Below, piece by piece: positions 1,617-41,371 of a stretch of 64,000 nt of DNA. The stretch spans positions 32,001-96,000 of the IMG/VR virus record IMGVR_UViG_3300033463_006479. One strand, written 5' to 3'. Below the pieces are notes generated by a model that was not told where the DNA came from, did no database searches, and was given only the letters and a program-made list of their open reading frames with translations. The stretch comes from a virus (Duplodnaviria > Caudoviricetes). Positions within the stretch are counted from its first letter, which is position 1; each line of letters opens with the position of its first letter. The position numbers and the translations under genes are program-made.

Positions 1617-1623
1617 AATGCTA

Positions 1624-2502: not shown

Positions 2503-2518
2503 AATGTCATTATAATGT

Positions 2519-12221: not shown

Positions 12222-12251
12222 GTTTTATAAATATAGTAACAATTTGTGAAT

Positions 12252-12800: not shown

Positions 12801-12809
12801 TAACTTACT

Positions 12810-13280: not shown

Positions 13281-13285
13281 TAGTT

Positions 13286-13831
13286 ATGAAAATACTAAAA
13301 TCAGATAAATACATAAACGAGAAACTCGGCATCAAACCAGTTACAAAAACAAGGCTGATTGACATAAAGGAAACATCTGTCGTGGCTACAGATGACACAT
13401 TGCTTGGCATTATTTTTGATGCCATAGAAACATATGGTTATGAAGGTGACTTCAACTTTATACAGACATATAAAGTTACCAGTATGAGCAACTTGTTTGA
13501 ATCTTCGGAGTTTAACGGGGACATTTCAAAATGGGATGTCAGCAACGTGACCAATATGAGCGAAATGTTTGAGGATTCAAAATTCAATAGGGACATTTCA
13601 AAATGGGATGTTTCCAATGTGCGTTTTATGGACTATATGTTCCAAGGGTCTGCATTTAACGGAGACATATCAAGATGGAATGTGTGTAATGTGAAAGATA
13701 TGAGTTATATGTTCACCGATTCAAATTTCAATGGGGATTTGACCTTGTGGAATGTGGGTAAAGATGTTCCTAAAGAATATATGTTTAGCCATTGCCCGCT
13801 TGGAAAAAATCCGCCAGCTTGGTACAAATAA
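13286..13831 (+). CDS. Tagged DUF285 repeat protein
   Basis: Close paralog of 12252-12800. Confidence 0.9.
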   Translation: MKILKSDKYINEKLGIKPVTKTRLIDIKETSVVATDDTLLGIIFDAIETYGYEGDFNFIQTYKVTSMSNLFESSEFNGDISKWDVSNVTNMSEMFEDSKFNRDISKWDVSNVRFMDYMFQGSAFNGDISRWNVCNVKDMSYMFTDSNFNGDLTLWNVGKDVPKEYMFSHCPLGKNPPAWYK

Positions 13832-14628: not shown

Positions 14629-16266
14629 ATGGTCATCGAGAGCAAATACACGAAAACCTTCAAGTCAAACGACTTAACCCGTCAGAAATATGACGAGTTG
14701 TATGCGTTTGCACTTATGCTACGTGACCATAAAAACCTTGTTTCCGAAAATGTGAACTCAAACCTTGAAAAGTACCTTGAATATTCCAAACTTGACTTCT
14801 TGAAGGAGATGAGGGCAAGATACAAGGATGTCATTCCAAGTTCGTTTTATTATGAGTTGTATTCACAAGTCTTTGCTTGCTACCAGAATAAGTTTGAAGC
14901 AATCCGCAAGCATCTTGACTTTGAAGTTGTAAGATTTGTCGGTTTTGACTTCTACAAGCGTGACACCAAGAAGAACAAGAAAGGAGACTTGAAGAAGGTT
15001 GTGACAGAGAAGAACAAAACACCTCTGTCAATTTGTCTGACCTACCTTGCGAGATATGGAAACGAGAACACACTTGAATACATAGCCAAGCAGTTAGAGA
15101 CCTGCGATGACAAGAAACGTGACTTCTACAACAATATCATCCGTTGCTGTGACAAGTTCGGTTTTGAACGTCTGCTTGGACTTGCTTTGCGGAAACGTAA
15201 CAGAATCATCAAGCGTTATTCAGAGCATCCGATAGGGTTCAAATCGCTTTCATTTGGCGGTCGTTGCAGGAAAACGAGAATCATTGACTACAACAAGAAG
15301 TTCGGTTCGGTCATCAACTCCTTTGTCAGTCTGTCGGGAATCGGGAGGAAGTCGTTTGACATTCCAGTGAAGTTCAACAAGGACTGGCACGGAAGTATGA
15401 AGGACTACCGCAAATCCAACCCCGACTACGAGTATGTCCTTACGTTTAACGAGAAACGACATCAAGTGAACATCAACTTGTGCAAGGACGGTCAGAGATA
15501 CATCCCAGAAGCAGGAGACAACGTGGTCGGCATTGACGTGAACTGTAAACACAATCTTTTCAGTCTGTCAAACGATACAAGTTATGATTATAACCGCAAG
15601 TTAGTCAATGACTTCTGCAAACTCTCGTTGGAGGTTGACGAACTGAAGAAAGACAAGAACTATGTTGTAGGAAAAAGAAAAAAGCGGAAACTTGACACCT
15701 TGAAGATGAAGATGCTGAAATCAGAGCAGCAACTCATATCAAGGATGTGCAAAGAACTTATGGCTGACGGAGTGAACCACATTGTTATGGAAGACCTTGA
15801 CAACGGATTCGGAAGGTGCTATGTCAAGGACAAGGGCAACGAGGATATAAACTACAACCGAAAGGTGAAGTTCCTTGGATTGAGTTCACTGAAAGATGAG
15901 GTTGAACACATTGCAAGGAAGTACGGCATCGCTTTGTCAACCGTGCAAGCGAGTTACACAAGCAAGATGTGCCCGATTTGCGGTTGCATTGCAGACGAGA
16001 ACCGACCTAACCAAGAGACATTTGAATGCGTTGAATGCGGACATAAGGACAATGCCGACCACAACGCATCGGTCAATATAAAGAACAGAGTGACCGTAAC
16101 CGTGTTGCGGGAGCAACTCTTAAAACGACTTGGCAACGGCGCATACGAACCTCGCAAATTAAAGCGAGAGAAGGTGAAGTATGTGCTGCTGTCGTTCCGA
16201 AGAGACTTGCAGAAAGCAAGTGGTGAACGTGGTGAAAGTGATATGACTACTTTTGACTATGTTTAG
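14629..16266 (+). CDS. tnpB: Large TnpB-family RNA-guided nuclease (545 aa)
   Basis: RuvC motifs VVGIDVN, IVMEDL, NADHNASVNI; Zn ribbon YTSKMCPICG..FECVECG. Confidence 0.9.
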   Translation: MVIESKYTKTFKSNDLTRQKYDELYAFALMLRDHKNLVSENVNSNLEKYLEYSKLDFLKEMRARYKDVIPSSFYYELYSQVFACYQNKFEAIRKHLDFEVVRFVGFDFYKRDTKKNKKGDLKKVVTEKNKTPLSICLTYLARYGNENTLEYIAKQLETCDDKKRDFYNNIIRCCDKFGFERLLGLALRKRNRIIKRYSEHPIGFKSLSFGGRCRKTRIIDYNKKFGSVINSFVSLSGIGRKSFDIPVKFNKDWHGSMKDYRKSNPDYEYVLTFNEKRHQVNINLCKDGQRYIPEAGDNVVGIDVNCKHNLFSLSNDTSYDYNRKLVNDFCKLSLEVDELKKDKNYVVGKRKKRKLDTLKMKMLKSEQQLISRMCKELMADGVNHIVMEDLDNGFGRCYVKDKGNEDINYNRKVKFLGLSSLKDEVEHIARKYGIALSTVQASYTSKMCPICGCIADENRPNQETFECVECGHKDNADHNASVNIKNRVTVTVLREQLLKRLGNGAYEPRKLKREKVKYVLLSFRRDLQKASGERGESDMTTFDYV

Positions 16267-17793: not shown

Positions 17794-17824
17794 TTGTTAT
17801 AAATATATAAACATAAATTGTGCT

Positions 17825-18715
17825 ATGGAAATACTGAAAACAGAACAATACATAAACGAGAAATTGGATATTCTTCCAGTCACAAAGGACAGACTTTCCA
17901 AAATGAAAGAATTGGTTTCTGTTGATGAAAAAACAAGGCGATTTATAGAAGAAAACAACTTGGTTTGGAATCCAGTCACAATGAGTTATGATTGTAAAGA
18001 TGATGTTCAAGTATCAGAGGATATAGTAATTAACGGAAAACTCAAAATAATATTCGGGAAAGTCAGTGGGGATTTTGATTGCCGTGATAATAATCTGACC
18101 ACCCTTGAGTGTGTGCCGAAGGAAGTGGGCGGAAGTTTTTATTGCAGTTATAATAATCTGACTACGCTTGAATGCGCACCGAAAGAAGTTGGTGGGTATT
18201 TTGATTGCAGTAACAATAATCTGACTACACTTGAAGGTGTACCGAATGTGGTTGGTAAGAATTTTGATTGTGGTAGAAATAATCTGACCACCCTTAACGG
18301 AGCACCACAAGAAGTTGGCGGGAGTTTTTATTGCAGTGGAAATGAACTGACTACACTTGAAGGAGCACCGCAGGAAGTGGGTGGTTTTTATTGCAGTTGT
18401 AATAGTCTGACTTCCCTTGAAGGTGCACCGAAAAAGGTTGGTGGGTGTTTTTATTGCAGTTTTAATTATCTGACCACGCTTGAAGGAGCACCAAAGGAAA
18501 TTGGCGAAGATTTTAAATGCAATGATAATGAACTGATTTCCCTTGAAGGCGCACCACAGAGAGTCGGCGGTGGTTTTGATTGTAGTGGCAATAAACTGAT
18601 TTCCCTTGAAGGCGCACCACAGAAAGTCGGTAGGGATTTTAAATGCAGTGATAACCCAAATCTTGTTTTATCAGAAGAAAAACCAAGCTGGGTGAAGGGG
18701 AATTTTATAAGATAA
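17825..18715 (+). CDS. Tagged LRR protein
   Basis: Tag + 22-aa repeats. Confidence 0.9.
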   Translation: MEILKTEQYINEKLDILPVTKDRLSKMKELVSVDEKTRRFIEENNLVWNPVTMSYDCKDDVQVSEDIVINGKLKIIFGKVSGDFDCRDNNLTTLECVPKEVGGSFYCSYNNLTTLECAPKEVGGYFDCSNNNLTTLEGVPNVVGKNFDCGRNNLTTLNGAPQEVGGSFYCSGNELTTLEGAPQEVGGFYCSCNSLTSLEGAPKKVGGCFYCSFNYLTTLEGAPKEIGEDFKCNDNELISLEGAPQRVGGGFDCSGNKLISLEGAPQKVGRDFKCSDNPNLVLSEEKPSWVKGNFIR

Positions 18716-18724
18716 ATCAAAATT

Positions 18725-19240
18725 ATGGAAATACTTAAATCAGAGCAATACATAAGCGAGAAACTGACCATACAGCCAGTAACAAAGGACAGACTTTCCA
18801 AAATGAAAGAAGAACCTTCTGCTGATGAAAAAGCAAGACAATTCATAGAAGACAACAACTTGGTTTGGAATCCCAAAACAATGTGTTATGACTGTGAAGG
18901 TAATATTAAAGTATCAGATGATATAGTCGCTGGAGGAAAACTTAAAATAAGATTTGGAAAAGTTAGTGGGTATTTTTATTGCAGTGATAATAATCTTACC
19001 ACACTTGAAGGAGCACCGAATAAAGTGGTCGGAAGTTTTTATTGCAGTAACAACAAACTAACCACTCTTGATGGCGCACCGCAATATGTTGAAGGAAGTT
19101 TTACTTGTAATGACAATAATTTGGTATCTCTTGAAGGCGCACCGAATGAAGTGTGTGGAAATTTTTGTTGCTATAATAATCCGAATCTGGTTTTGCCAAA
19201 AGAGAAACCGAGCTGGGTGAAAGGGGAAATAATACGTTAA
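18725..19240 (+). CDS. Tagged LRR protein
   Basis: Tag + 22-aa repeats. Confidence 0.9.
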   Translation: MEILKSEQYISEKLTIQPVTKDRLSKMKEEPSADEKARQFIEDNNLVWNPKTMCYDCEGNIKVSDDIVAGGKLKIRFGKVSGYFYCSDNNLTTLEGAPNKVVGSFYCSNNKLTTLDGAPQYVEGSFTCNDNNLVSLEGAPNEVCGNFCCYNNPNLVLPKEKPSWVKGEIIR

Positions 19241-19243
19241 ACT

Positions 19244-19885
19244 ATGAGAATATTAAAAACCGAACAATATATAAACGAGAAACTGCTAATCAAACCAGTC
19301 ACAAAGAATATGCTTGCCAAAATGAAAGAAGAGCCTTCTGCTGATGAAAAAGTAAGGCAATTTATAGAAGAAAACAACTTGGTTTGGAATCCAAAAACAA
19401 TGAGCTATGACTGTGTGGGTGATGTTAGAGTATCAGAGGATATAGTAATTGACGGAAAACTCAAAATAAGATTCGGGAAAGTCAATGGATATTTTGATTG
19501 CAGTAACAATAATCTGACCACGCTTGAAGGCTCACCGAATGAAGTGGTCGGAAGTTTTTATTGTGATAATAATAATCTTACCACTCTTGATGGCGCACCG
19601 AATAAAGTGGGCAGAGATTTTGATTGCAGTTATGACAAACTGACCTCGCTTGAAGGCGCACCGAATAAAGTGGGCAGGGATTTTGATTGCAGTTCTAATA
19701 ATCTGACTACGCTTGAAGGCGCACCGAATAAAGTGGGCAGGGATTTTTATTGCGGTTATAATGAACTTACCTCGCTTGAAGGCGCACCACAAGAAGTCGG
19801 TGGGGATTTTAATTGCATTTATAATCCAAACCTTATTTTACCAGAAGGGAAACCGAGCTGGCTGAAAGGGGAAATAATAAATTAA
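19244..19885 (+). CDS. Tagged LRR protein
   Basis: Tag + 22-aa repeats. Confidence 0.9.
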   Translation: MRILKTEQYINEKLLIKPVTKNMLAKMKEEPSADEKVRQFIEENNLVWNPKTMSYDCVGDVRVSEDIVIDGKLKIRFGKVNGYFDCSNNNLTTLEGSPNEVVGSFYCDNNNLTTLDGAPNKVGRDFDCSYDKLTSLEGAPNKVGRDFDCSSNNLTTLEGAPNKVGRDFYCGYNELTSLEGAPQEVGGDFNCIYNPNLILPEGKPSWLKGEIIN

Positions 19886-19888
19886 GTG

Positions 19889-20653
19889 ATGAAAATACTG
19901 GATTCAAACGAATACATTGGCGAAAAACTGGTAATCAAACCAGTTACAAAGGATATGCTTTCCGATTATAAAAATCTATCTGTTGACGAAACCACAAGTC
20001 AATTCATAGAAGAAAACAATCTTATATGGAATCCAATCACAAAAAGTTATGACTGTGGTGGTAATGTTATCGTATCAGAAGATATGGTCATTGACGGAAA
20101 ACTGAAAATAAAATTCGGAAAGGTCGGCGGGGAGTTTCTTTGCTTTAACAAACAACTGACCACGCTTGAAAACTCACCGAATGAAGTCGGAGGTGAGTTT
20201 GATTGCAGTAACAATGGACTGACTTCACTTGAAGGCGCACCGAAAAAAATTGGTGGACATTTTGATTGCAGTTTTAATAATCTGACCACACTTGAGGGAG
20301 CACCGCAGGAAGTCAGCGGAGGTTTTTATTTATATGATAATCATTTGACCTCGCTTGAAGGAGCACCACAGAAAGTTGGCGGAGATTTTAGTTGCAGTTC
20401 TAATAATCTTACAACGCTTGAAGGCTCACCGCAGAAAGTGAGTGGAGATTTCAATTGCAGTGGTAATGAACTGACCACCCTTGAAGGCGCACCGAAGGAA
20501 GTTGGTGGAAATTTTAATTGCAGTTATAATGAATTGACCACCCTTGATGGCGCACCACAGAAAGTTGGTGGAAATTTTGTTTGCAGTGATAACCCAAACC
20601 TTGTTTTACCAAAAAGAAAACCGAGCTGGTTGAAAGGAAAAATAATCAGTTAA
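19889..20653 (+). CDS. Tagged LRR protein
   Basis: Tag + 22-aa repeats. Confidence 0.9.
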   Translation: MKILDSNEYIGEKLVIKPVTKDMLSDYKNLSVDETTSQFIEENNLIWNPITKSYDCGGNVIVSEDMVIDGKLKIKFGKVGGEFLCFNKQLTTLENSPNEVGGEFDCSNNGLTSLEGAPKKIGGHFDCSFNNLTTLEGAPQEVSGGFYLYDNHLTSLEGAPQKVGGDFSCSSNNLTTLEGSPQKVSGDFNCSGNELTTLEGAPKEVGGNFNCSYNELTTLDGAPQKVGGNFVCSDNPNLVLPKRKPSWLKGKIIS

Positions 20654-20656
20654 GAT

Positions 20657-21736
20657 ATGAAAATATTGGATTCAAACGAATATATAAACGAGAAACTGGT
20701 AATCAAACCAGTAACAAAGGATAGGCTTTCCGATTATAAAAAGCCATATGCTGATGAGGAGACAATTCGATTCATAAAAGACAACAATCTTATATGGAAT
20801 CCATTATCAAAAAGTTATGACTGCGAAGGTTATGTTAATGTATCAGATGACATAGTAATTAATGGAAAACTCAAAATAAGATTCGGAAAGGTCTGTTTGG
20901 ATTTTAATTGCACTGATAATGAACTGACTACTCTTGAAGGAGCACCAAATGAAGTAGGAGGGGATTTTCTTTGCTTTCACAATGAACTGACCGCCCTTGA
21001 AGGCGCACCGAAGAAAGTCGGCGGACATTTTAATTGCAATAGTAATTATCTGACAACACTTGAAGGAGCACCAAATAATGTTGGTGGGAATTTTTATTGC
21101 AGTAACAATCAACTGACTACACTTGAAGGTGCACCGAATAAAGTTGATGGAAATTTTGATTGCAGTAAAAATAAACTGACCACCCTTGAAGGAGCACCGC
21201 AGGAAGTATGTGGAAGTTTTTATTGCGGTAACAATCAACTGACTACACTTGAAGGCGCACCAAATAAAGTTGATGGCGATTTTGATTGTTATAATAATAA
21301 TCTGACCTATCTTAAAGGCGCACCGCAGGAAGTATGTGGAAGTTTTTATTGCAGCAAAAATAAACTGACCTCGCTTGAAGGTGCACTGAAGAAAGTTGGT
21401 GGAGGCTTTAATTGCAGTAGTAATAATCTGGCCACCCTTGAAGGAGCACCGAAGAAAGTTGGTGGAAATTTTAGTTGCCGTAATAATAATCTTACCACCC
21501 TTGAAGGAGCACCGCAGGAAGTTGGTGGAAATTTTAGTTGCCGTAACAATAATCTGACCACGCTTGAAGGAACACCAAAGAAAGTTTGTGGGGATTTTTA
21601 TTGCAGTCATAATAATCTTACCACACTTGAAGGCGCACCAAATGAAGTCGGTGGTGATTTTGATTGCAGCAATAATCCAAACCTTGTTTTACCAAAAGAA
21701 AAACCGAACTGGCTGAAAGGAAAAATAATCAGTTAA
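20657..21736 (+). CDS. Tagged LRR protein
   Basis: Tag + about 12 repeats. Confidence 0.9.
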   Translation: MKILDSNEYINEKLVIKPVTKDRLSDYKKPYADEETIRFIKDNNLIWNPLSKSYDCEGYVNVSDDIVINGKLKIRFGKVCLDFNCTDNELTTLEGAPNEVGGDFLCFHNELTALEGAPKKVGGHFNCNSNYLTTLEGAPNNVGGNFYCSNNQLTTLEGAPNKVDGNFDCSKNKLTTLEGAPQEVCGSFYCGNNQLTTLEGAPNKVDGDFDCYNNNLTYLKGAPQEVCGSFYCSKNKLTSLEGALKKVGGGFNCSSNNLATLEGAPKKVGGNFSCRNNNLTTLEGAPQEVGGNFSCRNNNLTTLEGTPKKVCGDFYCSHNNLTTLEGAPNEVGGDFDCSNNPNLVLPKEKPNWLKGKIIS

Positions 21737-21739
21737 GAT

Positions 21740-22828
21740 ATGAAAATACTGGATTCAAACGAATACATAAACGAGAAACTGGACATTAAGCCAGTTACAA
21801 ATGACATACTTTCCAAATTTAGGGAAGAACCTTATATTGATAAAAAGACAAGAAAATTCATAGAAGTCAACAATCTTATATGGAATCCAGTCACAATGAG
21901 TTATGACTGTGATGGCGATGTTGATGTGTGGGAAGGCATAGTTACAGATGGAAAACTCAAAATAAGATTTGGGGATGTCTGTGGTGATTTTGATTGCAGT
22001 TATAATGAACTGACCACCCTTGAAGGCGCACCGAAAAAAGTAGGTGGTGATTTTGATTGTGATATTAATAATCTGACCACACTTGAAGGAGCACCAAATG
22101 TGGTGGGTGGACATTTTATTTGCAATGGCAATAAACTGACTTCACTTAAAGGAGCACCGAATGACGTTGGCGGAGATTTTAATTGCAGTGACAATAGTAT
22201 AACCACGCTTGAAGGTGCACCGAATAAGGTGGGCTGGGATTTTGATTGCAGTATTAATAAACTGACCACCCTTGAAGGAGCACCGAATGAAGTTGGTGGC
22301 GATTTTAATTGCAGTAGTAATAGTCTGACTACCCTTAAAGGCGCACCGAAGAAAGTTGATGGTGATTTTGATTGCAGTGGTAATAATCTGACCGCCCTTG
22401 AAGGTGCATCGAATGAGGTCGGTGGGTATTTTTATTGCTGTTATAATAAACTAACAACCCTTGAAGGTGCACCGAAGAAAGTGAGTGGAAATTTTTATTG
22501 TTATAACAATAATCTGACCACACTTGAAGGAGCACCAAATGAAGTAGGCGGGGATTTTAATTGCTCTTTTAATAATCTGACTGCCATTGAAGGAGCACCG
22601 AAGAAAGTCGGTGGGGATTTTAATTGCAGTAACAATGAACTGACCACCCTTGAAGGAGCACCGACTGTGGTTGGTAAAGGTTTTAATTGCAGTCATAATG
22701 AACTGACCACTCTTGAAGGAGCACCACAGAAAGTCGTTGGCGATTTTTATTGCAGACATAATCCAAACCTTGTTTTACCAGAAGAAAAACCGATTTGGAT
22801 TGAAGGAAAATATATAACTGCTTTATGA
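21740..22828 (+). CDS. Tagged LRR protein
   Basis: Tag + about 12 repeats. Confidence 0.9.
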   Translation: MKILDSNEYINEKLDIKPVTNDILSKFREEPYIDKKTRKFIEVNNLIWNPVTMSYDCDGDVDVWEGIVTDGKLKIRFGDVCGDFDCSYNELTTLEGAPKKVGGDFDCDINNLTTLEGAPNVVGGHFICNGNKLTSLKGAPNDVGGDFNCSDNSITTLEGAPNKVGWDFDCSINKLTTLEGAPNEVGGDFNCSSNSLTTLKGAPKKVDGDFDCSGNNLTALEGASNEVGGYFYCCYNKLTTLEGAPKKVSGNFYCYNNNLTTLEGAPNEVGGDFNCSFNNLTAIEGAPKKVGGDFNCSNNELTTLEGAPTVVGKGFNCSHNELTTLEGAPQKVVGDFYCRHNPNLVLPEEKPIWIEGKYITAL

Positions 22829-23592
22829 AAATACTTGATTCAAACGAATATATAAACGAGAAACTGGACATCCAGCCAGTCACAAAGGATAGGTTTGCCA
22901 AATTTAAGGAAGAACCTTATATTGATGAAAAGACAAGAAAATTCATAGAAGACAACAATCTTATATGGAATCCAGTTACAATGAGCTATGACTGTGGAGG
23001 TGGTGTTAAAGCATCAGAGGATATAGTTGCTGACGGAAAACTTAAAATAAGATTCGGGAAGGTTGATGGGGATTTTAATTGCAGTGATAATCAACTGACA
23101 ACCCTTGATGGAGCACCGAAGGAAGTGGGTAGAAATTTTTATTGCAGAAGAAATAAACTGACAACCCTTGAAGGAGCACCGAAGGAAGTGAGCGGAAGTT
23201 TTTATTGCAGTCGTAATAATCTGACCACCCTTAAAGACGCACCACAAAAAGTGGGTGGAGATTTTGATTGCATTGGTAATAAACTAACCACCCTTGAAGG
23301 AGCACCGCAGGAAGTTGGTGGGTATTTTAGTTGCAGTAATAATAATCTTACAACGCTTGAAGGAGCACCTCAAGAAATAGGTAAGGATTTTGATTGCAGT
23401 TTTAATAATCTTACCACCCTTAAAGGAACACCGCAGAAAGTCGGTGGGTATTTTAATTGCAGTGACACCAATCTGACCACCCTTGAGTACGCACCGAATG
23501 AAGTTGACGGTTATTTTTATTGTTATAATAACTCAAGTCTTGTTTTGCCAGAGGAGAAACCGAGCTGGCTGAAAGGGAGAATAATAAGTTAA
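22825..23592 (+). CDS. Tagged LRR protein
   Basis: Tag + 22-aa repeats. Confidence 0.9.
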   Translation: MKILDSNEYINEKLDIQPVTKDRFAKFKEEPYIDEKTRKFIEDNNLIWNPVTMSYDCGGGVKASEDIVADGKLKIRFGKVDGDFNCSDNQLTTLDGAPKEVGRNFYCRRNKLTTLEGAPKEVSGSFYCSRNNLTTLKDAPQKVGGDFDCIGNKLTTLEGAPQEVGGYFSCSNNNLTTLEGAPQEIGKDFDCSFNNLTTLKGTPQKVGGYFNCSDTNLTTLEYAPNEVDGYFYCYNNSSLVLPEEKPSWLKGRIIS

Positions 23593-23595
23593 ATT

Positions 23596-24300
23596 ATGAA
23601 AACACTGAAAACTGAACAATACATAAGCGAGAAACTGACCATACAGCCAGTCACAAAGGACAGACTTTCCAAAATGAAAGAAGAGCCGTCTGTTGATGAA
23701 AAAGCAAGGCTATACATAGAAGAAAACAACTTGGTTTGGAATTCAAAAACAATAAGCTATGATTGTTATGGAGATGTTGATGTGTCGGAAGACATAGTTA
23801 CAGATGGAAAACTCAAAATAAGATTTGGAAAGATTGGTGGGTATTTTGATTGCAATAACAATAGACTGACTACGCTTGAAGGAGTACCGAAAGAAGTTGG
23901 TGGGTATTTTGATTGCAGTTATAACAATCTGACCACACTTGAAGGAGCACCGAATGTTGTTGGTGAAGATTTTTATTGTGATAACAATAGACTGACCACT
24001 CTTGAAGGCGCACCGAATGAAGTGAGTGGTGATTTTTTTTGCGGTGGCAATAAACTGGCCACACTTGAAGGAGCACCGAAGGAAGTTGGCGGTTGTTTCA
24101 GTTGTAGTAATAATAATCTTACAACGCTTGAAGGTGCACCGAAAAAGGTCGGCGGGTATTTTAATTGCAGTGACAATAATCTGACTACACTTGAAGGAGC
24201 ACCACAGAAAGTTGGTGGGGATTTTAATTGCATTAATAACCCAAACCTTGTTTTACCAGAAGAAAAACCAATCTGGGTGAAAGGTGAAATATATAAATAA
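23596..24300 (+). CDS. Tagged LRR protein
   Basis: Tag + 22-aa repeats. Confidence 0.9.
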   Translation: MKTLKTEQYISEKLTIQPVTKDRLSKMKEEPSVDEKARLYIEENNLVWNSKTISYDCYGDVDVSEDIVTDGKLKIRFGKIGGYFDCNNNRLTTLEGVPKEVGGYFDCSYNNLTTLEGAPNVVGEDFYCDNNRLTTLEGAPNEVSGDFFCGGNKLATLEGAPKEVGGCFSCSNNNLTTLEGAPKKVGGYFNCSDNNLTTLEGAPQKVGGDFNCINNPNLVLPEEKPIWVKGEIYK

Positions 24301-24303
24301 TTT

Positions 24304-24882
24304 ATGAGAATACTGAAGTCAGACACATATATAAACGAGAAACTGGACATTAAGCCAGTCACAAAGGACAGACTTTCCAAATTTATGGAAAAACTGTATG
24401 TTGATGAAAACACAAGGAAATTTATAGAAAAGAATAATCTTAAATGGAATCCATTATTAAAAGGTTATGACTGTGGAGGTGATGTTAAAGTATCAGAGGA
24501 TATAGTCACTGACGGAAAACTGAAAATAAGATTTGGGAAAGTCGGTGGTAATTTTCATTGCGGTAGTAATAATCTGACCACGCTTGAAGGCGCACCGAAG
24601 GAAGTCGGTGGGTGTTTCAGTTGTAGTAATAATAATCTTACAACGCTTGAAGGAACACCGAAAAATGTCTGTGGGTATTTTAATTGCAGTGATAATAAAC
24701 TGACTTCACTTGAAGGAGCACCGCAGGAAGTCGGTGGGAATTTTTATTGCAGTGGTAATGAACTGACTACGCTTGAAGGCGCACCGAAGGAAGTCGGTGG
24801 GGATTTTATTTGCAGATATAACCAAAACCTTGTTTTACCAAAAGAAAAACCGAGCTGGCTGAAAGGGAATTTTATAAATTAA
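24304..24882 (+). CDS. Tagged LRR protein
   Basis: Tag + 22-aa repeats. Confidence 0.9.
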   Translation: MRILKSDTYINEKLDIKPVTKDRLSKFMEKLYVDENTRKFIEKNNLKWNPLLKGYDCGGDVKVSEDIVTDGKLKIRFGKVGGNFHCGSNNLTTLEGAPKEVGGCFSCSNNNLTTLEGTPKNVCGYFNCSDNKLTSLEGAPQEVGGNFYCSGNELTTLEGAPKEVGGDFICRYNQNLVLPKEKPSWLKGNFIN

Positions 24883-24891
24883 ATCAAAATT

Positions 24892-25659
24892 ATGGAAATA
24901 CTGAAAACCGAACAATATATAAACGAGAAACTGACCATACAGCCAGTAACAAAGGATAGACTTTCCAAATTTAGGGAAGAACCTTATATTGATGAAAAGA
25001 CAAGGCAATTCATAGAATACAACAACCTTAAATGGAATCCAGTTACAAAAAGTTATGATTGTGAAGGTGATGTTAAAGTATCAGAGGATATTGTTGCTGA
25101 CGGAAAACTGAAAATAAGATTCGGAAAAGTTAGCGGGATTTTTGATTGCAGTAACAATAAACTGACATCGCTTGAAGGAGCACCGAATGAAGTTGGTGGT
25201 AATTTTTATTGCGGTTATAATGAACTGACCACCCTTGATGGCGCACCGCAATATGTTGGTGTTGGTTTTCATTGTTATGGTAATAAACTGACTTCCCTTG
25301 AAGGCGCACCTCAAGAAATAGGTAAAGATTTTGATTGCGGTTATAATAATCTGACCACCCTTGAAGGAGCACCGAAGAAAGTTGGTGGTAATTTTGATTG
25401 CAGCAGTAATGTATTGACCACCCTTGAAGGCGCACCAAAATATGTTGGTGATAATTTTATTTGCAGTTATAATAAACTGACCACTCTTGAATGCGCACCG
25501 CAAGAAGTTGGTGTGGGTTTTTATTGCACTTCCAATAATCTGACCTCTCTTGAAGGTGCACCGAATAAAGTCGGTGGGTATTTTTATTGCAGTGATAATT
25601 CAAACCTTGTTTTACCAAAAGAAAAACCGAGCTGGGTGAAAGGAGAAATAATAAGTTAA
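24892..25659 (+). CDS. Tagged LRR protein
   Basis: Tag + 22-aa repeats. Confidence 0.9.
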   Translation: MEILKTEQYINEKLTIQPVTKDRLSKFREEPYIDEKTRQFIEYNNLKWNPVTKSYDCEGDVKVSEDIVADGKLKIRFGKVSGIFDCSNNKLTSLEGAPNEVGGNFYCGYNELTTLDGAPQYVGVGFHCYGNKLTSLEGAPQEIGKDFDCGYNNLTTLEGAPKKVGGNFDCSSNVLTTLEGAPKYVGDNFICSYNKLTTLECAPQEVGVGFYCTSNNLTSLEGAPNKVGGYFYCSDNSNLVLPKEKPSWVKGEIIS

Positions 25660-25662
25660 AAT

Positions 25663-26556
25663 ATGCAAATACTGAAAACCGAACAATACATAAACGAGAA
25701 ACTGACCATACAGCCAGTTACAAAGGACAGACTTTCCAAAATGAAAGAAGAGCCTTCTGTTGATAAAAAAGCAAGGCGATTCATAGAAGAAAACAACTTG
25801 GTTTGGAATCCAGTAACAATGAGTTATGACTGTGATGGTGATGTCAAAACATCAAAGGATATAGTTGCTGGTGGAAAATTGAACATAAAATTCGGAAATG
25901 TCGGCGGGGAGTTTAATTGCAATGAAAGTCATCTGACCACACTTGAAGGCGCACCGCAGGAAGTATGTGGAAGTTTTAGTTGCAATCATAATAATCTGAC
26001 CACCCTTGAGGGCGCACCGAAGAAAGTCGGTGGGCATTTTTATTGCATTGGTAATAATCTGACCACCCTTGAATGCGCACCAAATGAAGTTGGTGAAAAT
26101 TTTTATTGCAGTTATAATGAACTTACCTCGCTTGAAGGAGCACCGAAGAAAGTCGGCGGATATTTTGATTGTAGTAACAATAAATTGAAAATACTTGATG
26201 GTGCACCGCAGGAAGTGGGTGGAAATTTTGTTTGCAGTTTTAATAATCTGACCACACTTGATGGCGCACCGAAAAAAGTAGGCTGGTATTTTGATTGCAG
26301 TCATAATAATCTAACTTCACTTGAAGGTGCACCGCAGGAAGTTTATGGAGGTTTTTATTGCAGTAACAATAATTTGACCTCGCTTGAAGGTGCACCGAAT
26401 AAAGTGGATGGGGGTTTTAGTTGCAATAGTAATAATCTGACTTCACTTGAAGGCGCACCGAAAAAGGTTGGCGGTGATTTTTATTGCAGTTATAATCCGA
26501 ATTTGTATTTGCCTAAAGAAAAACCGAGCTGGTTGAAAGGAAATTTTATAAATTAA
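25663..26556 (+). CDS. Tagged LRR protein
   Basis: Tag + 22-aa repeats. Confidence 0.9.
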   Translation: MQILKTEQYINEKLTIQPVTKDRLSKMKEEPSVDKKARRFIEENNLVWNPVTMSYDCDGDVKTSKDIVAGGKLNIKFGNVGGEFNCNESHLTTLEGAPQEVCGSFSCNHNNLTTLEGAPKKVGGHFYCIGNNLTTLECAPNEVGENFYCSYNELTSLEGAPKKVGGYFDCSNNKLKILDGAPQEVGGNFVCSFNNLTTLDGAPKKVGWYFDCSHNNLTSLEGAPQEVYGGFYCSNNNLTSLEGAPNKVDGGFSCNSNNLTSLEGAPKKVGGDFYCSYNPNLYLPKEKPSWLKGNFIN

Positions 26557-26565
26557 ATCAAAATT

Positions 26566-27585
26566 ATGCAAATACTGAAAACCGAACAATATATAGACGA
26601 GAAACTGGTAGTTAAACCATTAACAAAGGATAGGCTTGTCAAATTTAAAGAAGAGCCTTCTGTTGATGAAAACGCAAGGCAATTCATAGAAAAAAACAAC
26701 TTGGTTTGGAATCCCAAAACAATGAGTTATGACTGTGATGGCGATGTTAGCGTATCAGAAGATATAGTCATTGACGGAAAATTGAAAATAAGATTCGGAA
26801 AAGTTAGTGGATGTTTTGATTGCAGTTATAACAAACTGATATCGCTTGAAGGAGCACCGAAGAAAGTGGGCGGGGATTTTAGTTGCAGTCATAATAAACT
26901 GACCACCCTTGAAGGAGCACCGCAGAATGTGGGCGGGAAATTTAATTGCATTCATAATAAACTGACTACCCTTGAAGGAGCTCCGAATGTGGTTGGTAAC
27001 AGTTTTTATTGCAGCAAAAATGAACTGACCACCCTTGAAGGAGCACCGCAGAAAGTGGGCAGGGATTTTAATTGTAGTGATAATAATCTAACCACACTTG
27101 AGGGCGCACCACAAGAAGTTGGAGGTAAATTTGATTGCGATAACAATATACTGACATCACTTGAAGGCGCACCGAAGAAAGTCGGCTGGGATTTTTATTG
27201 CAGTGTTAACAAGCTAACCTCACTTAAAGGTGCGCCGAATGAAGTGGGCGGGGATTTTTATTGCTATTATAATAAACTGACCTCGCTTGAAGGTGCGCCA
27301 CAAAAGGTTGGTAAAACTTTTGATTGCAGTGACAATAAACTAACAACACTTGAAGGAGCACCGAGTGTTGTTGGCAGAGGTTTTTGTTGCAACAAAAATA
27401 ATCTGACTACCCTTGAAGGAGCACCGCAGAAAGTTGGTGAGGATTTTATTTGCTTTCACAATCAACTTACCACCATTGAAATAGCACCGCAGGAAGTCGG
27501 AGGCGATTTTTTTTGCAGCAATAACCCAACCCTTGTTTTACCAAAAAGAAAACCGAGCTGGCTGAAAGGAAATATAATACGTTAA
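26566..27585 (+). CDS. Tagged LRR protein
   Basis: Tag + 22-aa repeats. Confidence 0.9.
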   Translation: MQILKTEQYIDEKLVVKPLTKDRLVKFKEEPSVDENARQFIEKNNLVWNPKTMSYDCDGDVSVSEDIVIDGKLKIRFGKVSGCFDCSYNKLISLEGAPKKVGGDFSCSHNKLTTLEGAPQNVGGKFNCIHNKLTTLEGAPNVVGNSFYCSKNELTTLEGAPQKVGRDFNCSDNNLTTLEGAPQEVGGKFDCDNNILTSLEGAPKKVGWDFYCSVNKLTSLKGAPNEVGGDFYCYYNKLTSLEGAPQKVGKTFDCSDNKLTTLEGAPSVVGRGFCCNKNNLTTLEGAPQKVGEDFICFHNQLTTIEIAPQEVGGDFFCSNNPTLVLPKRKPSWLKGNIIR

Positions 27586-27588
27586 ACT

Positions 27589-28101
27589 ATGAAAATACTG
27601 GATTCAAACGAATACATAAACGAGAAACTGAACATACAGCCAGTTACAAAGGATAGGCTTTCCGATTATAAAAAGCCATCTGTTGATAAGGAAACAATAC
27701 GATTTATAGAAGAGAAAAATCTTATATGGAATCCATTATCAAAATGTTATGATTGCGGAGGTAATGTTAGAGTATTAGATGATATGGTCATTGACGGAAA
27801 ACTCAAAATAAAATTCGGGAAAGTCGGTGGTGGTTTTGATTGCAGTAACAATAAACTGACCACACTTGAAGGCGCACCGCAGGAAGTGCGTGGAGGTTTT
27901 TATTGTAATAACAATAATCTGACCTCGCTTGAATGTGCACCACAAAAAGTTGGTGGAAATTTTAATTGCAGTTCTAATAATCTAACCTCGCTTGAATGCG
28001 CACCACAGAAAGTTGGTGGTGATTTTTATTGCAGACATAATCCAAACCTTGTTTTACCAGAAGGAAAACCGAGCTGGCTGAAAGGAGAAATATATGACTA
28101 A
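27589..28101 (+). CDS. Tagged LRR protein
   Basis: Tag + 3 repeats. Confidence 0.9.
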   Translation: MKILDSNEYINEKLNIQPVTKDRLSDYKKPSVDKETIRFIEEKNLIWNPLSKCYDCGGNVRVLDDMVIDGKLKIKFGKVGGGFDCSNNKLTTLEGAPQEVRGGFYCNNNNLTSLECAPQKVGGNFNCSSNNLTSLECAPQKVGGDFYCRHNPNLVLPEGKPSWLKGEIYD

Positions 28102-28104
28102 TTT

Positions 28105-28605
28105 ATGAGAATACTGGATTCAAAAGAATACATAAGCGAGAAACTGGATATTAAACCTATAACAAAGAAAAGATTGAAAAGCGGTATGTTCGATTGGAAA
28201 AATAAATTGAAAACTGGAGATGCCGTTATCATTAAACTTGTGTCGGATTCAAAAAAAGAATATACAGTTGAGTTTTTTTATGTATCTGAAGAAGATTACA
28301 ACCAATACAAATCAATCTTTAACTTTGATATGGCCAGCATAGAAACCGATAAATTGAAAAACGGTATGTTCATAAGGTGGCGTTGGGGTGATAAAAAATA
28401 TGAATTTAGTATGGTAAGCCAGTATGGTGACATTAATGCAATGCGAACAACAAGTGCTGGCAATTATGAGTATGTATGCCGCATATACCGCAACGAGAAA
28501 TTTGAATATCCGCTAACTGGAAAATATTTCAAAGACAACCAAAATCTTGTTTTTGCGTTGTCTTACGGCTGGTCACTTGTTTATGATTCTGTTTTAAATC
28601 ACTAA
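28105..28605 (+). CDS. Tagged protein with domain X
   Basis: Tag + LKTGDAVII...FFYVSEEDY. Confidence 0.8.
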   Translation: MRILDSKEYISEKLDIKPITKKRLKSGMFDWKNKLKTGDAVIIKLVSDSKKEYTVEFFYVSEEDYNQYKSIFNFDMASIETDKLKNGMFIRWRWGDKKYEFSMVSQYGDINAMRTTSAGNYEYVCRIYRNEKFEYPLTGKYFKDNQNLVFALSYGWSLVYDSVLNH

Positions 28606-30005: not shown

Positions 30006-31323
30006 CGGAATTATCCCTTTTAGTCTTGTTAAACTTCAAGTTCAATAGTCGCTTCGTTGCTGTCCGTTTGTTCACCAGTTTTCTTGGGTTTTGCAAACGG
30101 TTGATACACAGCTCCACGACTGTACTCGACATTCCTTGCCGAGATATGTCTCTGCCATTCATCTGGCTCGTATGATTCATTATTCTTCGCTGCGTTGATG
30201 TCTCTGTCGTGATGAGCACCGCAGTTCGGGCAAGTCCAATATCTTACACCCAGATTTTTGACTTTCTTGTTTATGTAACCGCACTCGCTGCACATTTGGC
30301 TTGATGGATAATATCTGTCGACTTTCATCATAGTTTTGCCGTTCCATCTGCATTTGTATTCGAGTGTCTGGACAAACTGATGCCAGTTACATTCGGAGAT
30401 GGACTCTGCCAACTTATGATTCTTCATCATTCCTTTAATGTTGAGGTCTTCAACTTTTATCAAATCATAAGTTTTGACAAGTTCTGTGGTTATCTTGTGT
30501 ATGTAATCGGTTTTGATGTCCGTGATTTTCTGGTAGATTCGGTTGCATTTCAACACTTGGTTTTCGTATCTCTTGCTTCCGTGTATCTTTCTTGCCAGAC
30601 ATCTTTGATATTTCTTTAACTTTCTTTTATAATATCTAATTATACTACGTTTACTTGCGTATTTGAATCCCTTGCTTGTTATAATCAACTCCTTTATTCC
30701 GAGGTCAAGACCCACACGCTCATAGGTTTTACTGCTTGGCGTATAATCTTGCTTGACTGTTATCGCTATATAATATCTGCCAGCCTTGTTTTTTGAAATT
30801 GTGGCAAAGCAAATCTTGCCAGTGATTTCTTTGGAGACCACAATGTCTATTCCGCTTTTGAGTTTCGGAATATAAAGTTTATTATCCTTGATTCGGAACG
30901 TGTTTGGCTGTGAAATCCTAAACGACTGTTTGTTCTTTCTGTTCTTGAACTTCGGGTATTTGCTTCTGCGCTTGTAGAAATTGTCATACGCAGTGTGCAT
31001 ATTCCTCAAACTGCATTGCAAAGACTGCAAAGGAATATCATTCAAGAATTCGAATCCTTCAGTCTTGCGGAGTTTGGTCAGTTTAGATTGTTGAATGTTG
31101 TATGAATCGCTTGTCTTTGTTTCTTCGTATTGTTGTTTCTTCTCATTAAGGAAATGGTTGTACACAAGCCTGCAACACCCGAACACATTAGCAAGATAAA
31201 CTTGCTGCTCTCTGTTCGGATATATCCTAAACTTATATGTGTAAACTCTTTCCATCTAATTGAAATACTATACTCTATTTATACCAATTACATTCTTACA
31301 AGACTAAATGGGATAATTCCGTA
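30006..31323 (-). mobile_element. tnpB-only insertion element 2 with 24-bp TIRs (23/24)
   Basis: CGGAATTATCCCTTTTAGTCTTGT (30006-30029) and ACAAGACTAAATGGGATAATTCCG (31298-31321); internal TATAAATA on - strand at 31276-31283. Confidence 0.85.
30029..31255 (-). CDS. tnpB: TnpB (IS605/IS607 OrfB family) RNA-guided nuclease
   Basis: YKFRIYPN HTH, VGLDLG, VEDLN, PSSQMCSECG, CPNCG..HDRDINAA. Confidence 0.93.
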   Translation of the reverse strand: MERVYTYKFRIYPNREQQVYLANVFGCCRLVYNHFLNEKKQQYEETKTSDSYNIQQSKLTKLRKTEGFEFLNDIPLQSLQCSLRNMHTAYDNFYKRRSKYPKFKNRKNKQSFRISQPNTFRIKDNKLYIPKLKSGIDIVVSKEITGKICFATISKNKAGRYYIAITVKQDYTPSSKTYERVGLDLGIKELIITSKGFKYASKRSIIRYYKRKLKKYQRCLARKIHGSKRYENQVLKCNRIYQKITDIKTDYIHKITTELVKTYDLIKVEDLNIKGMMKNHKLAESISECNWHQFVQTLEYKCRWNGKTMMKVDRYYPSSQMCSECGYINKKVKNLGVRYWTCPNCGAHHDRDINAAKNNESYEPDEWQRHISARNVEYSRGAVYQPFAKPKKTGEQTDSNEATIELEV

Positions 31324-41306: not shown

Positions 41307-41341
41307 AAATCCCCCAAGTATAATGCTTGGGGGATTTTTTT
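41307..41341 (+). terminator. Intrinsic terminator
   Basis: AAATCCCCCAAG-tataatg-CTTGGGGGATTTTTT. Confidence 0.85.
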
Positions 41342-41371
41342 ATAAATAATGTATTGTTATTTAATGCTATT

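What the first reader, a model, noticed from the sequence alone, without database searches (positions are those of the whole stretch)
17825..28101. 13-gene LRR array resembling a variable-receptor repertoire
Seen: 10.3 kb of head-to-tail paralogs with constant caps, 3 to about 12 repeats and a near-invariant scaffold (LTTLEGAP..VGG). Variation is concentrated in x-F-x-C-x-x-N-x. Known: these positions form the concave binding face of LRR solenoids, as in lamprey VLRs. Inference: recombination among the 66-bp units generates a library of binders, perhaps against host defence proteins or receptors.
Basis: partly seen in the sequence, partly recalled or inferred. Interest (0 to 1): 0.75.

Follow-up and report, generated by a model that had tools for sequence, protein, structure and literature searches.

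The report
Shuffling LRR binder genes, huge phage
A huge uncultured phage carries 13 back-to-back genes for small leucine-rich-repeat binding proteins that differ mainly on their predicted binding face and are reshuffled repeat by repeat between related strains, and they carry a tag suggesting they may be loaded into the phage head and injected into the host.

Summary
Thirteen head-to-tail + strand genes (17825-28101) each have a shared leader, an N-cap, 3-12 units and a C-cap, 95 units in all. Unit positions 1, 3, 5, 6 and 8 (x-F-x-C-x-x-N-x) carry 2.2-3.2 bits of entropy; the scaffold carries under 0.8.

An AlphaFold2 model (pLDDT 90) and PDB searches show an LRR solenoid. It is closest by sequence to the 21-residue cysteine-ladder LRR of Listeria InlJ (E 1e-24).

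The record is a 192-kb piece of a huge phage with a T4-type head. It holds 24 family members in all.

Related metagenomic strains show whole-unit gain and loss, chimeric genes and a changed gene order. Matched units stay 98-100% identical. So diversity comes from germline cassette shuffling, not from VLR-like somatic assembly or DGR hypermutation (no reverse transcriptase found).

Function is inferred. A T4 late-promoter-like TATAAATA lies upstream. The disordered leader (MKILDSNEYINE|KL) resembles the T4 capsid-targeting sequence and the repeated DYLAE motif of a relative's protease-scaffold protein. This points to head-packaged, injected binders.

Earlier scan notes had already flagged this tag on the same genome.

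The parts
17798..17805 (+). TATAAATA, a T4 late-promoter-like motif 19 nt upstream of the first ATG of the array
   Evidence: 22 copies in the window against 4.4 expected. Copies also lie upstream of the major capsid and portal genes.
17825..18715 (+). LRR gene 1 (296 aa, 9 units, one of them 20 aa)
18725..19240 (+). LRR gene 2 (171 aa, 3 units)
19244..19885 (+). LRR gene 3 (213 aa, 5 units). The orthologue in L011 has units 98-100% identical.
19886..20653 (+). LRR gene 4 (254/255 aa, 7 units; one unit has Y in place of the ladder Cys)
20657..21736 (+). LRR gene 5 (359 aa, 12 units). Its units 3-4 reappear inside gene 9' of strain L011.
21740..22828 (+). LRR gene 6 (362 aa, 12 units); overlaps gene 7 by 4 nt
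22825..23592 (+). LRR gene 7 (255 aa, 7 units). The orthologue in L009 has a conserved repeat block but diverged caps.
23596..24300 (+). LRR gene 8 (234 aa, 6 units). This is the modelled protein. L009 and L011 carry a 7-unit allele.
24304..24882 (+). LRR gene 9 (192 aa, 4 units). Units 2-3 are 90-92% identical to gene 8 units 5-6.
24892..25659 (+). LRR gene 10 (255 aa, 7 units)
25663..26556 (+). LRR gene 11 (297 aa, 9 units)
26566..27585 (+). LRR gene 12 (339 aa, 11 units); collinear orthologue in L011
27589..28101 (+). LRR gene 13 (170 aa, 3 units; 7 units in L011)
28105..28605 (+). Gene 14 (166 aa): same N-terminal leader, non-LRR payload. It continues the operon.

Best explanation
The 13 genes encode small (17-38 kDa), mostly acidic LRR solenoid proteins of the InlJ-like 21-residue cysteine-ladder type. 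Each presents a different set of D/N/Y/S/G/H-rich residues on the concave face, so each is a binder with its own specificity.

The repertoire is germline. It grows and changes by gene duplication, by in-register unequal recombination between 63-bp units (unit gain and loss), and by exchange of units and caps between paralogues. Individual binding faces are then kept by purifying selection.

The array is probably transcribed late as an operon. Each protein starts with a disordered leader of about 12 residues ending in Y-I-x-E. The T4-type prohead protease probably uses this both as a capsid-targeting sequence and as a cut site. If so, the binders are loaded into the head and enter the host with the DNA, where they would bind host proteins such as defence factors.

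Shown: the genes, the fold class, the variability pattern and the strain-level shuffling. Inferred: late expression, packaging, cleavage, injection and targets.
For: **Fold**
- AF2 model: pLDDT 90.3, pTM 0.83.
- All top structural matches are LRRs: InlC2 Z 15.3, IpaH1.4 14.6, SspH1 14.4, InlJ 13.0 (Foldseek).
- The family profile hits InlJ 3bz5 at E 9.8e-25.

**Variability**
- Entropy is concentrated at unit positions 1, 3, 5, 6 and 8.
- Among units, variable sites have pN 0.43 and scaffold sites pN 0.066, with scaffold pS 0.43.

**Shuffling**
- L011 (92-96% nt identity) has a different gene order and a 7-unit gene 8. Its gene 9' carries gene 5 units 3-4 (63/63 and 58/63 nt). Its gene 13' has 7 units against 3 here.
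- L009 independently shows the same 7-unit gene 8 allele and different upstream neighbours.
- Pairwise identities of N-caps and C-caps among paralogues are uncorrelated, r = -0.08.
- The closest complete relative (major capsid protein 88% identical) has about 20 members in clusters of 1-5, and none is more than 69% identical to ours.

**Purifying selection on each gene**
- Across four orthologue pairs, 4 of 150 variable and 7 of 360 scaffold residues changed, with pN/pS 0.25-0.39.

**Packaging**
- The capsid is T4 Gp23-type and the portal Gp20-type.
- TATAAATA lies 19 nt before gene 1 and is enriched 5-fold in the window.
- The leader is disordered in the model.
- Leader MKILDSNEYINE|KL compared with T4 IPII/IPIII MKTYQEFIAE|A. 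The gp21 cleavage motif is L/I-x-E and the CTS is 10 residues (PMC9026906).
- The major capsid N-terminus carries SINE, IKE and MLNE.
- The relative G001 has an S77 prohead protease (49.5 bits) fused to 12 tandem H[SN]DYLAE[QK]L repeats. This matches the leader's [DE]Y[LI]xE[KQ]L.
- About 55 ORFs with unrelated payloads share the leader.
- T-even internal proteins are diverse anti-restriction proteins that share only a CTS (PMC3012670).
Against: - There are no virion proteomics, and no cleavage or binding data for any family member.
- The 192-kb record itself has only a weak protease-like hit (18 bits). The clear protease is in a relative, not in this record.
- The conserved part of the leader extends about 12 residues past the putative cut (KLxIxPVTKxRL), which a pure T4-style CTS does not need.
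- The mature proteins are mostly acidic (pI 4.6-5.6), unlike the basic T4 internal proteins.
- A Vibrio phage homologue has the same units but no leader, so the LRR module can work without the tag.
- Positive selection is not demonstrated. Variable-site dN is about equal to scaffold dS among paralogous units, which is compatible with relaxed constraint. Orthologue comparisons are low-powered.
- The mosaic evidence rests on short-read metagenome contigs.
Confidence: 0.45

Rival explanations
1. The LRR proteins are external virion adhesins or host-recognition modules. The shared N-terminal segment would dock them onto the capsid, tail or fibres, and the variable face would bind host surface glycans or proteins, widening or switching host range.
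For: - Late-promoter-like motif and position beside structural genes.
- The closest sequence relatives, the internalins, are surface adhesins.
- In phage Goslar, several virion-associated proteins pair a shared N-terminal module (DUF7941) with LRR or carbohydrate-binding domains. Those authors read them as host recognition (bioRxiv 10.64898/2026.04.21.720040).
- Other tagged genes carry DUF285/BspA-like repeats, a class common on bacterial surfaces.
Against: - The shared segment is about 25 residues, is predicted disordered, and contains a protease-type Y-I-x-E site that matches the scaffold repeats of a relative. That fits an internal propeptide better than a docking domain.
- About 55 different proteins would need docking sites.
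- No trimerisation or fibre-like domain is present. The proteins are small monomer-like solenoids.
Confidence: 0.2
2. The proteins are not packaged. They act inside the infected cell late in infection as binders or adaptors for host or phage proteins. The leader would be only the conserved N-terminus of a large paralogue family, or a translational or regulatory element.
For: - The LRR module occurs without the leader in a Vibrio phage.
- The leader is conserved beyond the putative cut site.
- The proteins are acidic, unlike the T4 internal proteins.
- No strong protease gene lies in this record.
Against: - The same leader sits on unrelated payloads (LRR, DUF285, others), which argues for a portable address rather than a family domain.
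- It resembles the T4 CTS and the scaffold cleavage repeats.
- Binders made only late, from the same promoter type as head genes, would have little time to act in the producing cell.
Confidence: 0.2
3. The array is a programmed diversification system: VLR-like copy-choice assembly, or DGR-like targeted hypermutation that creates new binders within a phage population on short time scales.
For: - Variation sits on the binding face.
- Codons at positions 1, 3 and 5 are almost only NNT (GAT, AAT, TAT, AGT, GGT, CAT, TGT), with the third base T in 94-99% of units. This recalls the AAY-derived codon sets of DGR variable regions.
- Between strains, differences are mainly at the unit level.
Against: - No reverse transcriptase (PF00078) in this record or in the complete 413-kb relative.
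- Every gene is complete with both caps, and there are no cap-less donor cassettes.
- The array is identical in two assemblies.
- Matched units are 98-100% identical between strains, and only 4 of 150 variable residues differ.
- The second codon base is mostly a purine rather than random.
- The longest exact repeat is 43 nt.
Confidence: 0.03

Closest known systems
Listeria monocytogenes internalin J (InlJ, PDB 3bz5), the 21-residue 'cysteine ladder' LRR
   Same: 21-residue period. A Cys replaces the sixth consensus hydrophobic residue in every unit (94 of 95 units here). Asn ladder and N-x-L-T-x-L motif are shared. Profile match E 9.8e-25; structural Z 13.0 over 189 residues.
   Different: InlJ is a secreted, cell-wall-anchored bacterial adhesin with a long non-LRR tail. 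These are 170-362-aa phage proteins with no hydrophobic signal peptide and no anchor. They have their own N-cap and C-cap and a G-A-P-x-x-V-G-G convex segment.
LRR domains of injected type III effectors (IpaH1.4/7.8/9.8, SspH1, YopM)
   Same: Short (20-22 aa) bacterial-type LRRs used as target-recognition modules by proteins delivered into another cell. They are among the top structural matches (Z 13.9-14.6; Foldseek; SspH1 by sequence).
   Different: There is no E3 ligase (NEL) or other catalytic domain here. Delivery would be by phage head ejection rather than a secretion system. Sequence identity is only about 20%.
Phage T4 internal proteins IPI, IPII, IPIII and Alt (capsid-targeting sequence cargo)
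   Same: Diverse payloads behind a short conserved N-terminal peptide ending in I-x-E, in a phage with Gp23-type capsid and Gp20-type portal. IPII/IPIII start MKTYQEFIAE; the leader here is MKILDSNEYINE. The T-even IP loci are likewise highly variable between phages (PMC3012670).
   Different: Packaging and cleavage are unproven here. The tag is longer and bipartite. There are dozens of cargo genes rather than 3-4. The payloads are repeat-protein binders and acidic. No sequence homology exists in the payload.
Variable lymphocyte receptors of lampreys and hagfish
   Same: LRR solenoids whose diversity is concentrated on concave-face positions and which differ in LRR unit number. Structural Z 12.6-12.8.
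   Different: VLRs are assembled somatically by copy choice from cap-less cassettes into one incomplete germline gene. Here there are 13 complete germline genes and no donor cassettes, and the array is stable between assemblies.
Large LRR families of giant viruses (FNIP/FGxxFN repeats of CroV and mimiviruses; PMC9525666)
   Same: A virus-encoded multigene LRR repertoire of unknown targets. Those authors also propose recognition of many ligands and possible antagonism of host responses.
   Different: A different LRR class (22-23 aa, FGxxFN, Phe spine), eukaryote-infecting viruses, no shared N-terminal tag, and often fused to F-box or kinase domains.
Plant resistance-gene LRR clusters (for example Cf-4/Cf-9), from general knowledge
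   Same: Tandem arrays of LRR paralogues. Hypervariability sits at the solvent-exposed x positions of xxLxLxx. Variation in unit number and chimeric genes arise by unequal crossing-over.
   Different: Host-side receptors with membrane or NB-ARC signalling domains; 24-aa plant-specific LRR class. The comparison is to the mode of evolution only.

Membership tests
Leucine-rich repeat (LRR) solenoid superfamily | Tandem 20-30-residue units with the conserved segment LxxLxLxxNxL | tested here: met
   The unit x-F-x-C-x-x-N-x-L fits with F=L4, C=L6, N=N9, L=L11. There are 95 units in strict 21-aa register. HMM alignment to InlJ and SspH1.
Leucine-rich repeat (LRR) solenoid superfamily | Curved solenoid fold with one short strand per unit, plus N- and C-terminal caps | tested here: met
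   AF2 pLDDT 90.3 with a strand at F-x in every unit. All 50 best VIA-align matches are LRR proteins, Z up to 15.3, covering residues 26-234.
InlJ-type cysteine-ladder LRR | 21-residue period with Cys at consensus position 6 of each unit | tested here: met
   Period 63 bp. Cys in 94 of 95 units. Profile E 9.8e-25 to 3bz5.
InlJ-type cysteine-ladder LRR | Internalin architecture: secretion signal, inter-repeat and stalk regions, LPXTG wall anchor | tested here: not met
   The proteins end 26-39 residues after the last unit. They begin with a charged, non-hydrophobic leader, and no LPXTG is present (sequences). I ran no dedicated signal-peptide predictor.
VLR-like somatically assembled receptors | One incomplete germline gene plus flanking cap-less LRR donor cassettes | tested here: not met
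   All 13 ORFs are complete with leader, N-cap, units and C-cap, and are separated by at most 9 nt. The same array appears in a second assembly.
VLR-like somatically assembled receptors | AID/APOBEC-type cytidine deaminase driving assembly | not tested
   I ran no search for deaminase families.
T4-type capsid-targeted internal proteins | Short N-terminal targeting peptide ending in an L/I-x-E prohead-protease site | tested here: met
   All 13 proteins carry Y-I-[NSGD]-E at residues 9-12. T4 IPII/IPIII carry F-I-A-E at residues 7-10. This is motif level only.
T4-type capsid-targeted internal proteins | Phage has T4-type head machinery (Gp23 capsid, Gp20 portal, S77 prohead protease) | tested here: inconclusive
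   Gp23 and Gp20 are clear. For S77 there is only an 18-bit hit in this incomplete record. The closest complete relative has a 49.5-bit hit fused to DYLAE-repeat scaffold, and that gene is absent from this record.
T4-type capsid-targeted internal proteins | Protein present inside mature heads, N-terminally processed, ejected on infection | not testable with these tools
   This needs virion proteomics or reporter fusions.
Diversity-generating retroelement (DGR) targets | Reverse transcriptase with a template repeat near the variable repeat | tested here: not met
   No PF00078 match in G000 or in the complete relative G001; the controls were positive. No near-identical long repeat exists, the longest being 43 nt.

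The most novel reading that the evidence does not exclude
A huge phage carries, inside its capsid, a combinatorially shuffled library of dozens of LRR (and DUF285) binders. These are injected ahead of or with the DNA, and each neutralises or recruits a different host protein. It would be a virus-side counterpart of an innate immune receptor repertoire, evolving by cassette exchange of 21-residue units.
Probability: 0.25. Interest if true: 0.85.

Novelty: new variant of a known kind. Interest (0 to 1): 0.66.

Why it matters
LRR binder repertoires are known from animal and plant immunity and from injected bacterial effectors, but not as a major, tagged gene class of bacteriophages. The nearest protein clusters are almost wholly viral, and every member with a name is called only 'hypothetical protein'.

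If these proteins are packaged and injected, huge phages would deliver a customisable set of protein binders at the moment of infection. That would extend the T4 internal-protein anti-restriction idea to a modular scaffold whose specificity can be rewired by swapping 63-bp units.

This would give a concrete handle on how huge phages cope with diverse host defences. It would also provide a natural small, cysteine-ladder LRR scaffold for binder engineering.

The strain comparisons already give a direct example of unit-level cassette evolution in a virus.

Tried and rejected
- **Megablast of the array against 50,697 phage records:** no match.
- **Search for syntenic loci with the left-flank 395-aa protein:** none found.
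- **Right-flank phosphatase-like protein:** found only a non-syntenic locus in the 413-kb relative.
- **Pfam on the LRR proteins:** only sub-threshold LRRNT and LRR_4 hits. PHROGs gave unnamed families 7816 and 21719.
- **Prohead protease in this record:** only an 18-bit S77 hit and a weak phrog_207 hit on a 173-aa ORF. phmmer against the PDB was uninformative. I do not rely on it.
- **The relative's protease-scaffold protein:** no match in this record.
- **DGR hypothesis:** no reverse transcriptase.
- **Complex prediction** of the leader plus N-cap (alignment A2, residues 1-82) against the DYLAE-repeat region of the relative's scaffold: no verdict (score 0.00, controls not run). This is neither for nor against binding.
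- **Exact look-up of the 10 array proteins I submitted:** 7 were not in the collection at all, although their contig is. So that look-up cannot be used to claim either variation or identity for those genes.
- **dN/dS among paralogous units:** the high per-codon ratios at positions 1, 3 and 8 come largely from near-zero synonymous change at those codons, so I do not count them as proof of positive selection.
- **Antisense ORFs inside the array** (for example 20843-21610, 255 aa): rejected as by-products of the repeat, since the sense frame has the family homology and the purifying-selection signal.


Full report

Yes. Between 17825 and 28101 the + strand carries 13 ORFs of 170-362 aa, separated by -4 to +9 nt. 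Tandem Repeats Finder reports a 63-bp period in every gene, with 126- and 189-bp multiples.

Anchoring on L-T-T-L-E-G-A-P gives 9, 3, 5, 7, 12, 12, 7, 6, 4, 7, 9, 11 and 3 full units. That is 95 units, all in 21-aa register apart from a single 20-aa unit. Every protein has four parts:
- a leader of about 25 aa;
- an N-cap of about 57 aa;
- the units;
- a C-cap (xFxCxxNPNLVLPxxKPSWLKGxII).

Writing the unit as x1 F2 x3 C4 x5 x6 N7 x8 L9 T10 T11 L12 E13 G14 A15 P16 x17 x18 V19 G20 G21, the column entropies are as follows.

| Positions | Entropy |
|---|---|
| 1, 3, 5, 6, 8 | 2.85, 2.55, 2.18, 3.17, 2.37 bits |
| F2, C4, N7, L9, L12, P16, V19 | 0.34 bits or less |

The variable columns are dominated by D, N, Y, S, G and H.

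The window is bases 32001-96000 of a 192,463-bp IMG/VR virus record. That record holds 24 family members, including a second array on the - strand just upstream of the window.

**2. Not an artefact.**

- An independent ENA assembly (a 22-kb contig) has the same 13 genes with the same product lengths and the same flanking genes.
- At least five of the proteins are letter-identical in two assemblies.
- Paralogues are only about 66-72% identical in DNA.
- The longest exact repeat within the array is 43 nt, too short to confuse assemblers that use k-mers around 100.
- Orthologue comparisons give pN/pS of 0.25-0.39 in the repeats, so the sense frame is under purifying selection.

**3. What the proteins are.**

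An AlphaFold2 model of gene 8, built on an 18-sequence alignment, has pLDDT 90.3 and pTM 0.83. Each unit has one short strand at F2-x3 and another at x18-V19. Residues 1-17 are disordered.

Every one of the 50 best VIA-align matches among 48,161 PDB representatives is an LRR protein:

| Match | Z |
|---|---|
| InlC2 | 15.3 |
| IpaH1.4 | 14.6 |
| SspH1 | 14.4 |
| InlJ | 13.0 |
| Hagfish VLR | 12.6-12.8 |

Foldseek agrees.

By sequence, the family profile hits Listeria InlJ (3bz5) at E 9.8e-25, and then SspH1. InlJ is the type example of a 21-residue LRR in which a cysteine replaces a core hydrophobic residue, the 'cysteine ladder' (title of 3bz5; Bublitz 2008, as cited in PMC9525666).

The HMM alignment sets F2=L4, C4=L6, N7=N9 and L9=L11 of the LRR consensus LxxLxLxxNxL. 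The five hypervariable positions therefore correspond to consensus positions 3, 5, 7, 8 and 10. By established LRR structural knowledge these are the outward-facing residues of the concave strand and the loop that follows it. The DSSP strand at F-x agrees.

This step is therefore inference from alignment and secondary structure.

**4. How the diversity arises.**

*Within this genome.* The units are old. Scaffold synonymous divergence among units is pS 0.43. Variable-site pN is 0.43 and scaffold pN is 0.066. So the variable sites evolve at about the neutral rate or faster, and the scaffold is strongly constrained.

N-cap and C-cap similarities among the 13 paralogues are uncorrelated (r = -0.08). 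The nearest paralogue by N-cap differs from the nearest by C-cap in 12 of 13 genes. In 19 of 95 units the nearest unit lies in the same gene, against 7.6 expected. This is a mosaic history with some intragenic duplication.

*Between strains.* Here the picture is direct.

Contig L011 (JGI sample, 92-96% nt identity in shared segments) has the gene order 8'-9'-10/11'-12'-13'-new-3'-4'-14. The order here is 1 to 14.

A unit-by-unit map shows that matched units are 98-100% identical. The differences are whole-unit events:
- Gene 8 has 6 units here but 7 in L011, through an in-register 63-bp fusion.
- Gene 9' contains gene 5's units 3 and 4 (63/63 and 58/63 nt).
- Gene 13' has 7 units instead of 3.
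- A 10/11 fusion gene has 5 units.

Contig L009, from a bovine metagenome, independently carries the same 7-unit gene 8 allele. Its gene 7 orthologue follows three leader-DUF285 genes instead of gene 6. Its repeat block is nearly identical to ours, but its caps are about as diverged as different paralogues are.

Across four collinear orthologue pairs, 4 of 150 variable residues and 7 of 360 scaffold residues differ. The caps are 3-5 times more diverged, with pS 0.13-0.19 against 0.035.

In the closest complete relative (G001, 413 kb, major capsid protein 88% identical), about 20 members lie in clusters of 1-5. None is more than 69% identical to ours.

The VLR-type mechanism is not supported. 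All genes are complete and there are no cap-less donor cassettes. The array is stable between assemblies, and binding faces are conserved between close strains. A DGR is excluded as far as can be tested, because neither this record nor the complete relative has a reverse transcriptase.

**5. Context and likely function.**

The phage has a T4 Gp23-type capsid protein and a Gp20-type portal. Its nearest database relatives are huge uncultured phages and the Lak Prevotella megaphages. The closest contigs come from a bovine metagenome.

TATAAATA, the T4 late-promoter sequence, occurs 22 times in the window against 4.4 expected. One copy lies 19 nt before gene 1, and others lie upstream of the capsid and portal genes. 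The tiny intergenic gaps fit one late operon.

All 13 proteins, and about 55 ORFs in the record with unrelated payloads (DUF285/BspA-like repeats and others), begin with M-x-I-L-x-x-x-x-Y-I-x-E-K-L-x-I-x-P-V-T-K-x-R-L.

The first 12 residues resemble the T4 capsid-targeting sequence. I read the real T4 sequence from AF158101: IPII and IPIII start MKTYQEFIAE|A, against MKILDSNEYINE|KL here. T4 gp21 cuts after L/I-x-E, and 10 residues suffice for targeting (PMC9026906).

The capsid protein's own N-terminus carries SINE, IKE and MLNE.

Most tellingly, the complete relative encodes an S77 T4-type prohead protease (49.5 bits). It is fused to a scaffold-like region with 12 tandem copies of H-[SN]-D-Y-L-A-E-[QK]-L, the same [DE]-Y-[LI]-x-E-[KQ]-L as the leader. 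That gene lies in a part of the genome missing from this 192-kb record.

T-even internal proteins are described as a diverse set of anti-restriction proteins that share only the targeting sequence (PMC3012670).

My best reading is that these are late, tagged LRR binders loaded into the prohead, trimmed by the protease and delivered with the DNA. I put this at about 45%.

Points against this reading:
- There are no proteomic data.
- The conserved tag extends beyond the putative cut.
- The mature proteins are acidic.
- A Vibrio phage has the same units without the tag.

The main rivals are external adhesins, as proposed for the Goslar DUF7941-LRR proteins, and unpackaged intracellular binders.

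**6. Novelty.**

LRR repertoires, unit-number evolution by unequal crossing-over, T4 CTS cargo and giant-virus LRR families (PMC9525666) are all known. I found no description of a tandem array of InlJ-type LRR genes as tagged cargo-like genes of a huge bacteriophage, with direct strain-level evidence of unit cassette exchange. Over 3,800 metagenomic relatives carry no functional name: the few with one are called 'hypothetical protein' and one is labelled DUF1330 family. The nearest ESM Atlas clusters are 98-100% viral and almost all called hypothetical. I rate it a new variant of a known kind.

Earlier notes of this scan had already flagged the shared tag and the capsid-loading idea on this same genome. 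I reached the idea independently (note). I tested it further with the T4 sequences and the relative's protease-scaffold gene.

**7. An unexplained detail.**

At the hypervariable codons 1, 3 and 5, the third base is T in 94-99% of units. The codons are almost only GAT, AAT, TAT, AGT, GGT, CAT and TGT, although the control genes I counted elsewhere in this record (capsid, portal and five others) use GAC and AAC at least as often as GAT and AAT. L12 is always CTT and A15 is nearly always GCA, while other third positions vary freely. The relative G001 shows the same pattern at codons 1 and 3 and at A15, and more weakly at codon 5 and L12. It has its own fixed third base at G14, which hints at concerted evolution or a DNA- or RNA-level constraint.

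Noticed in passing
window 17825-28101 (units); also L007/L008: The third codon base at hypervariable unit positions 1, 3 and 5 is T in 94-99% of 94 units (codons NRT), although control genes elsewhere in the record use GAC and AAC at least as often as GAT and AAT. L12 is always CTT and A15 nearly always GCA, while other synonymous sites vary freely. The 413-kb relative shows much the same pattern and has its own fixed base at G14. The cause is unknown: concerted evolution, or a DNA- or RNA-level constraint.
   Followed up: partly
window 14629-16266 (+) and 30029-31255 (-): Two TnpB/Cas12f-like genes (TNB domain; the second is a complete OrfB_IS605 with HTH) bracket the LRR array. A TnpB C-terminal remnant also lies next to the rearranged array in the related contig L009. 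They might contribute to rearrangements.
   Followed up: no
G000:C1:14299-30518 (- strand, upstream of the window) and window 4054-4809 (-): A second array of about 10 genes of the same LRR family is interleaved with other leader-bearing genes. A further member inside the window matches through one TAA. There are 24 members in the record.
   Followed up: partly
L013 (G001:C1:290934-294281), - strand ORF of at least 642 aa: In the closest complete relative, the T4-type S77 prohead protease is fused to a scaffold-like region with 12 tandem 14-aa repeats H[SN]DYLAE[QK]L. Each contains an L/I-x-E cut motif that matches the cargo leader.
   Followed up: partly
window 747-4039, 12246-13831, 35982-36764, 54320-56455: Many other leader-bearing genes carry DUF285 (BspA-like) repeats. 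They include three directly downstream of the portal gene. In the relative G001 the post-portal slot holds LRR genes instead, so cargo cassettes are exchanged between slots.
   Followed up: partly
window 49529-51064 (-): A phage-encoded protein has a GmrSD_N (DUF262-type) restriction endonuclease N-terminal domain (E 1e-17).
   Followed up: no
window 8199-10178 (+) and 41327-42727 (+): There are two large homing-endonuclease-like genes (PHROG 3339/559). One lies immediately upstream of the major capsid gene.
   Followed up: no
window 20843-21610 (-), 25852-26304 (-), 25081-25503 (-): Long antisense ORFs run through the repeat arrays. They are most likely stop-free by-products of the repetitive codon pattern, not genes.
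   Followed up: partly
L010 (Vibrio phage VB_VaC_TDDLMA PP083315, CDS0008): A cultured 196-kb Vibrio phage encodes a 211-aa protein with eight nearly identical copies of the same 21-aa unit. It has no leader or N-cap and lies next to a DnaB-like helicase gene. It is a possible experimental entry point for the LRR module.
   Followed up: partly
L002:8985-9992 (G001): An ORF in the 413-kb relative starts MKILSLDQFIAE, which combines this phage's leader start with the exact FIAE of the T4 capsid-targeting sequence.
   Followed up: no
window 24292-24299: A second TATAAATA lies inside the array just before gene 9. It is formed by the last codons of gene 8 (Y-K-stop), so it may be incidental rather than an internal promoter.
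   Followed up: no
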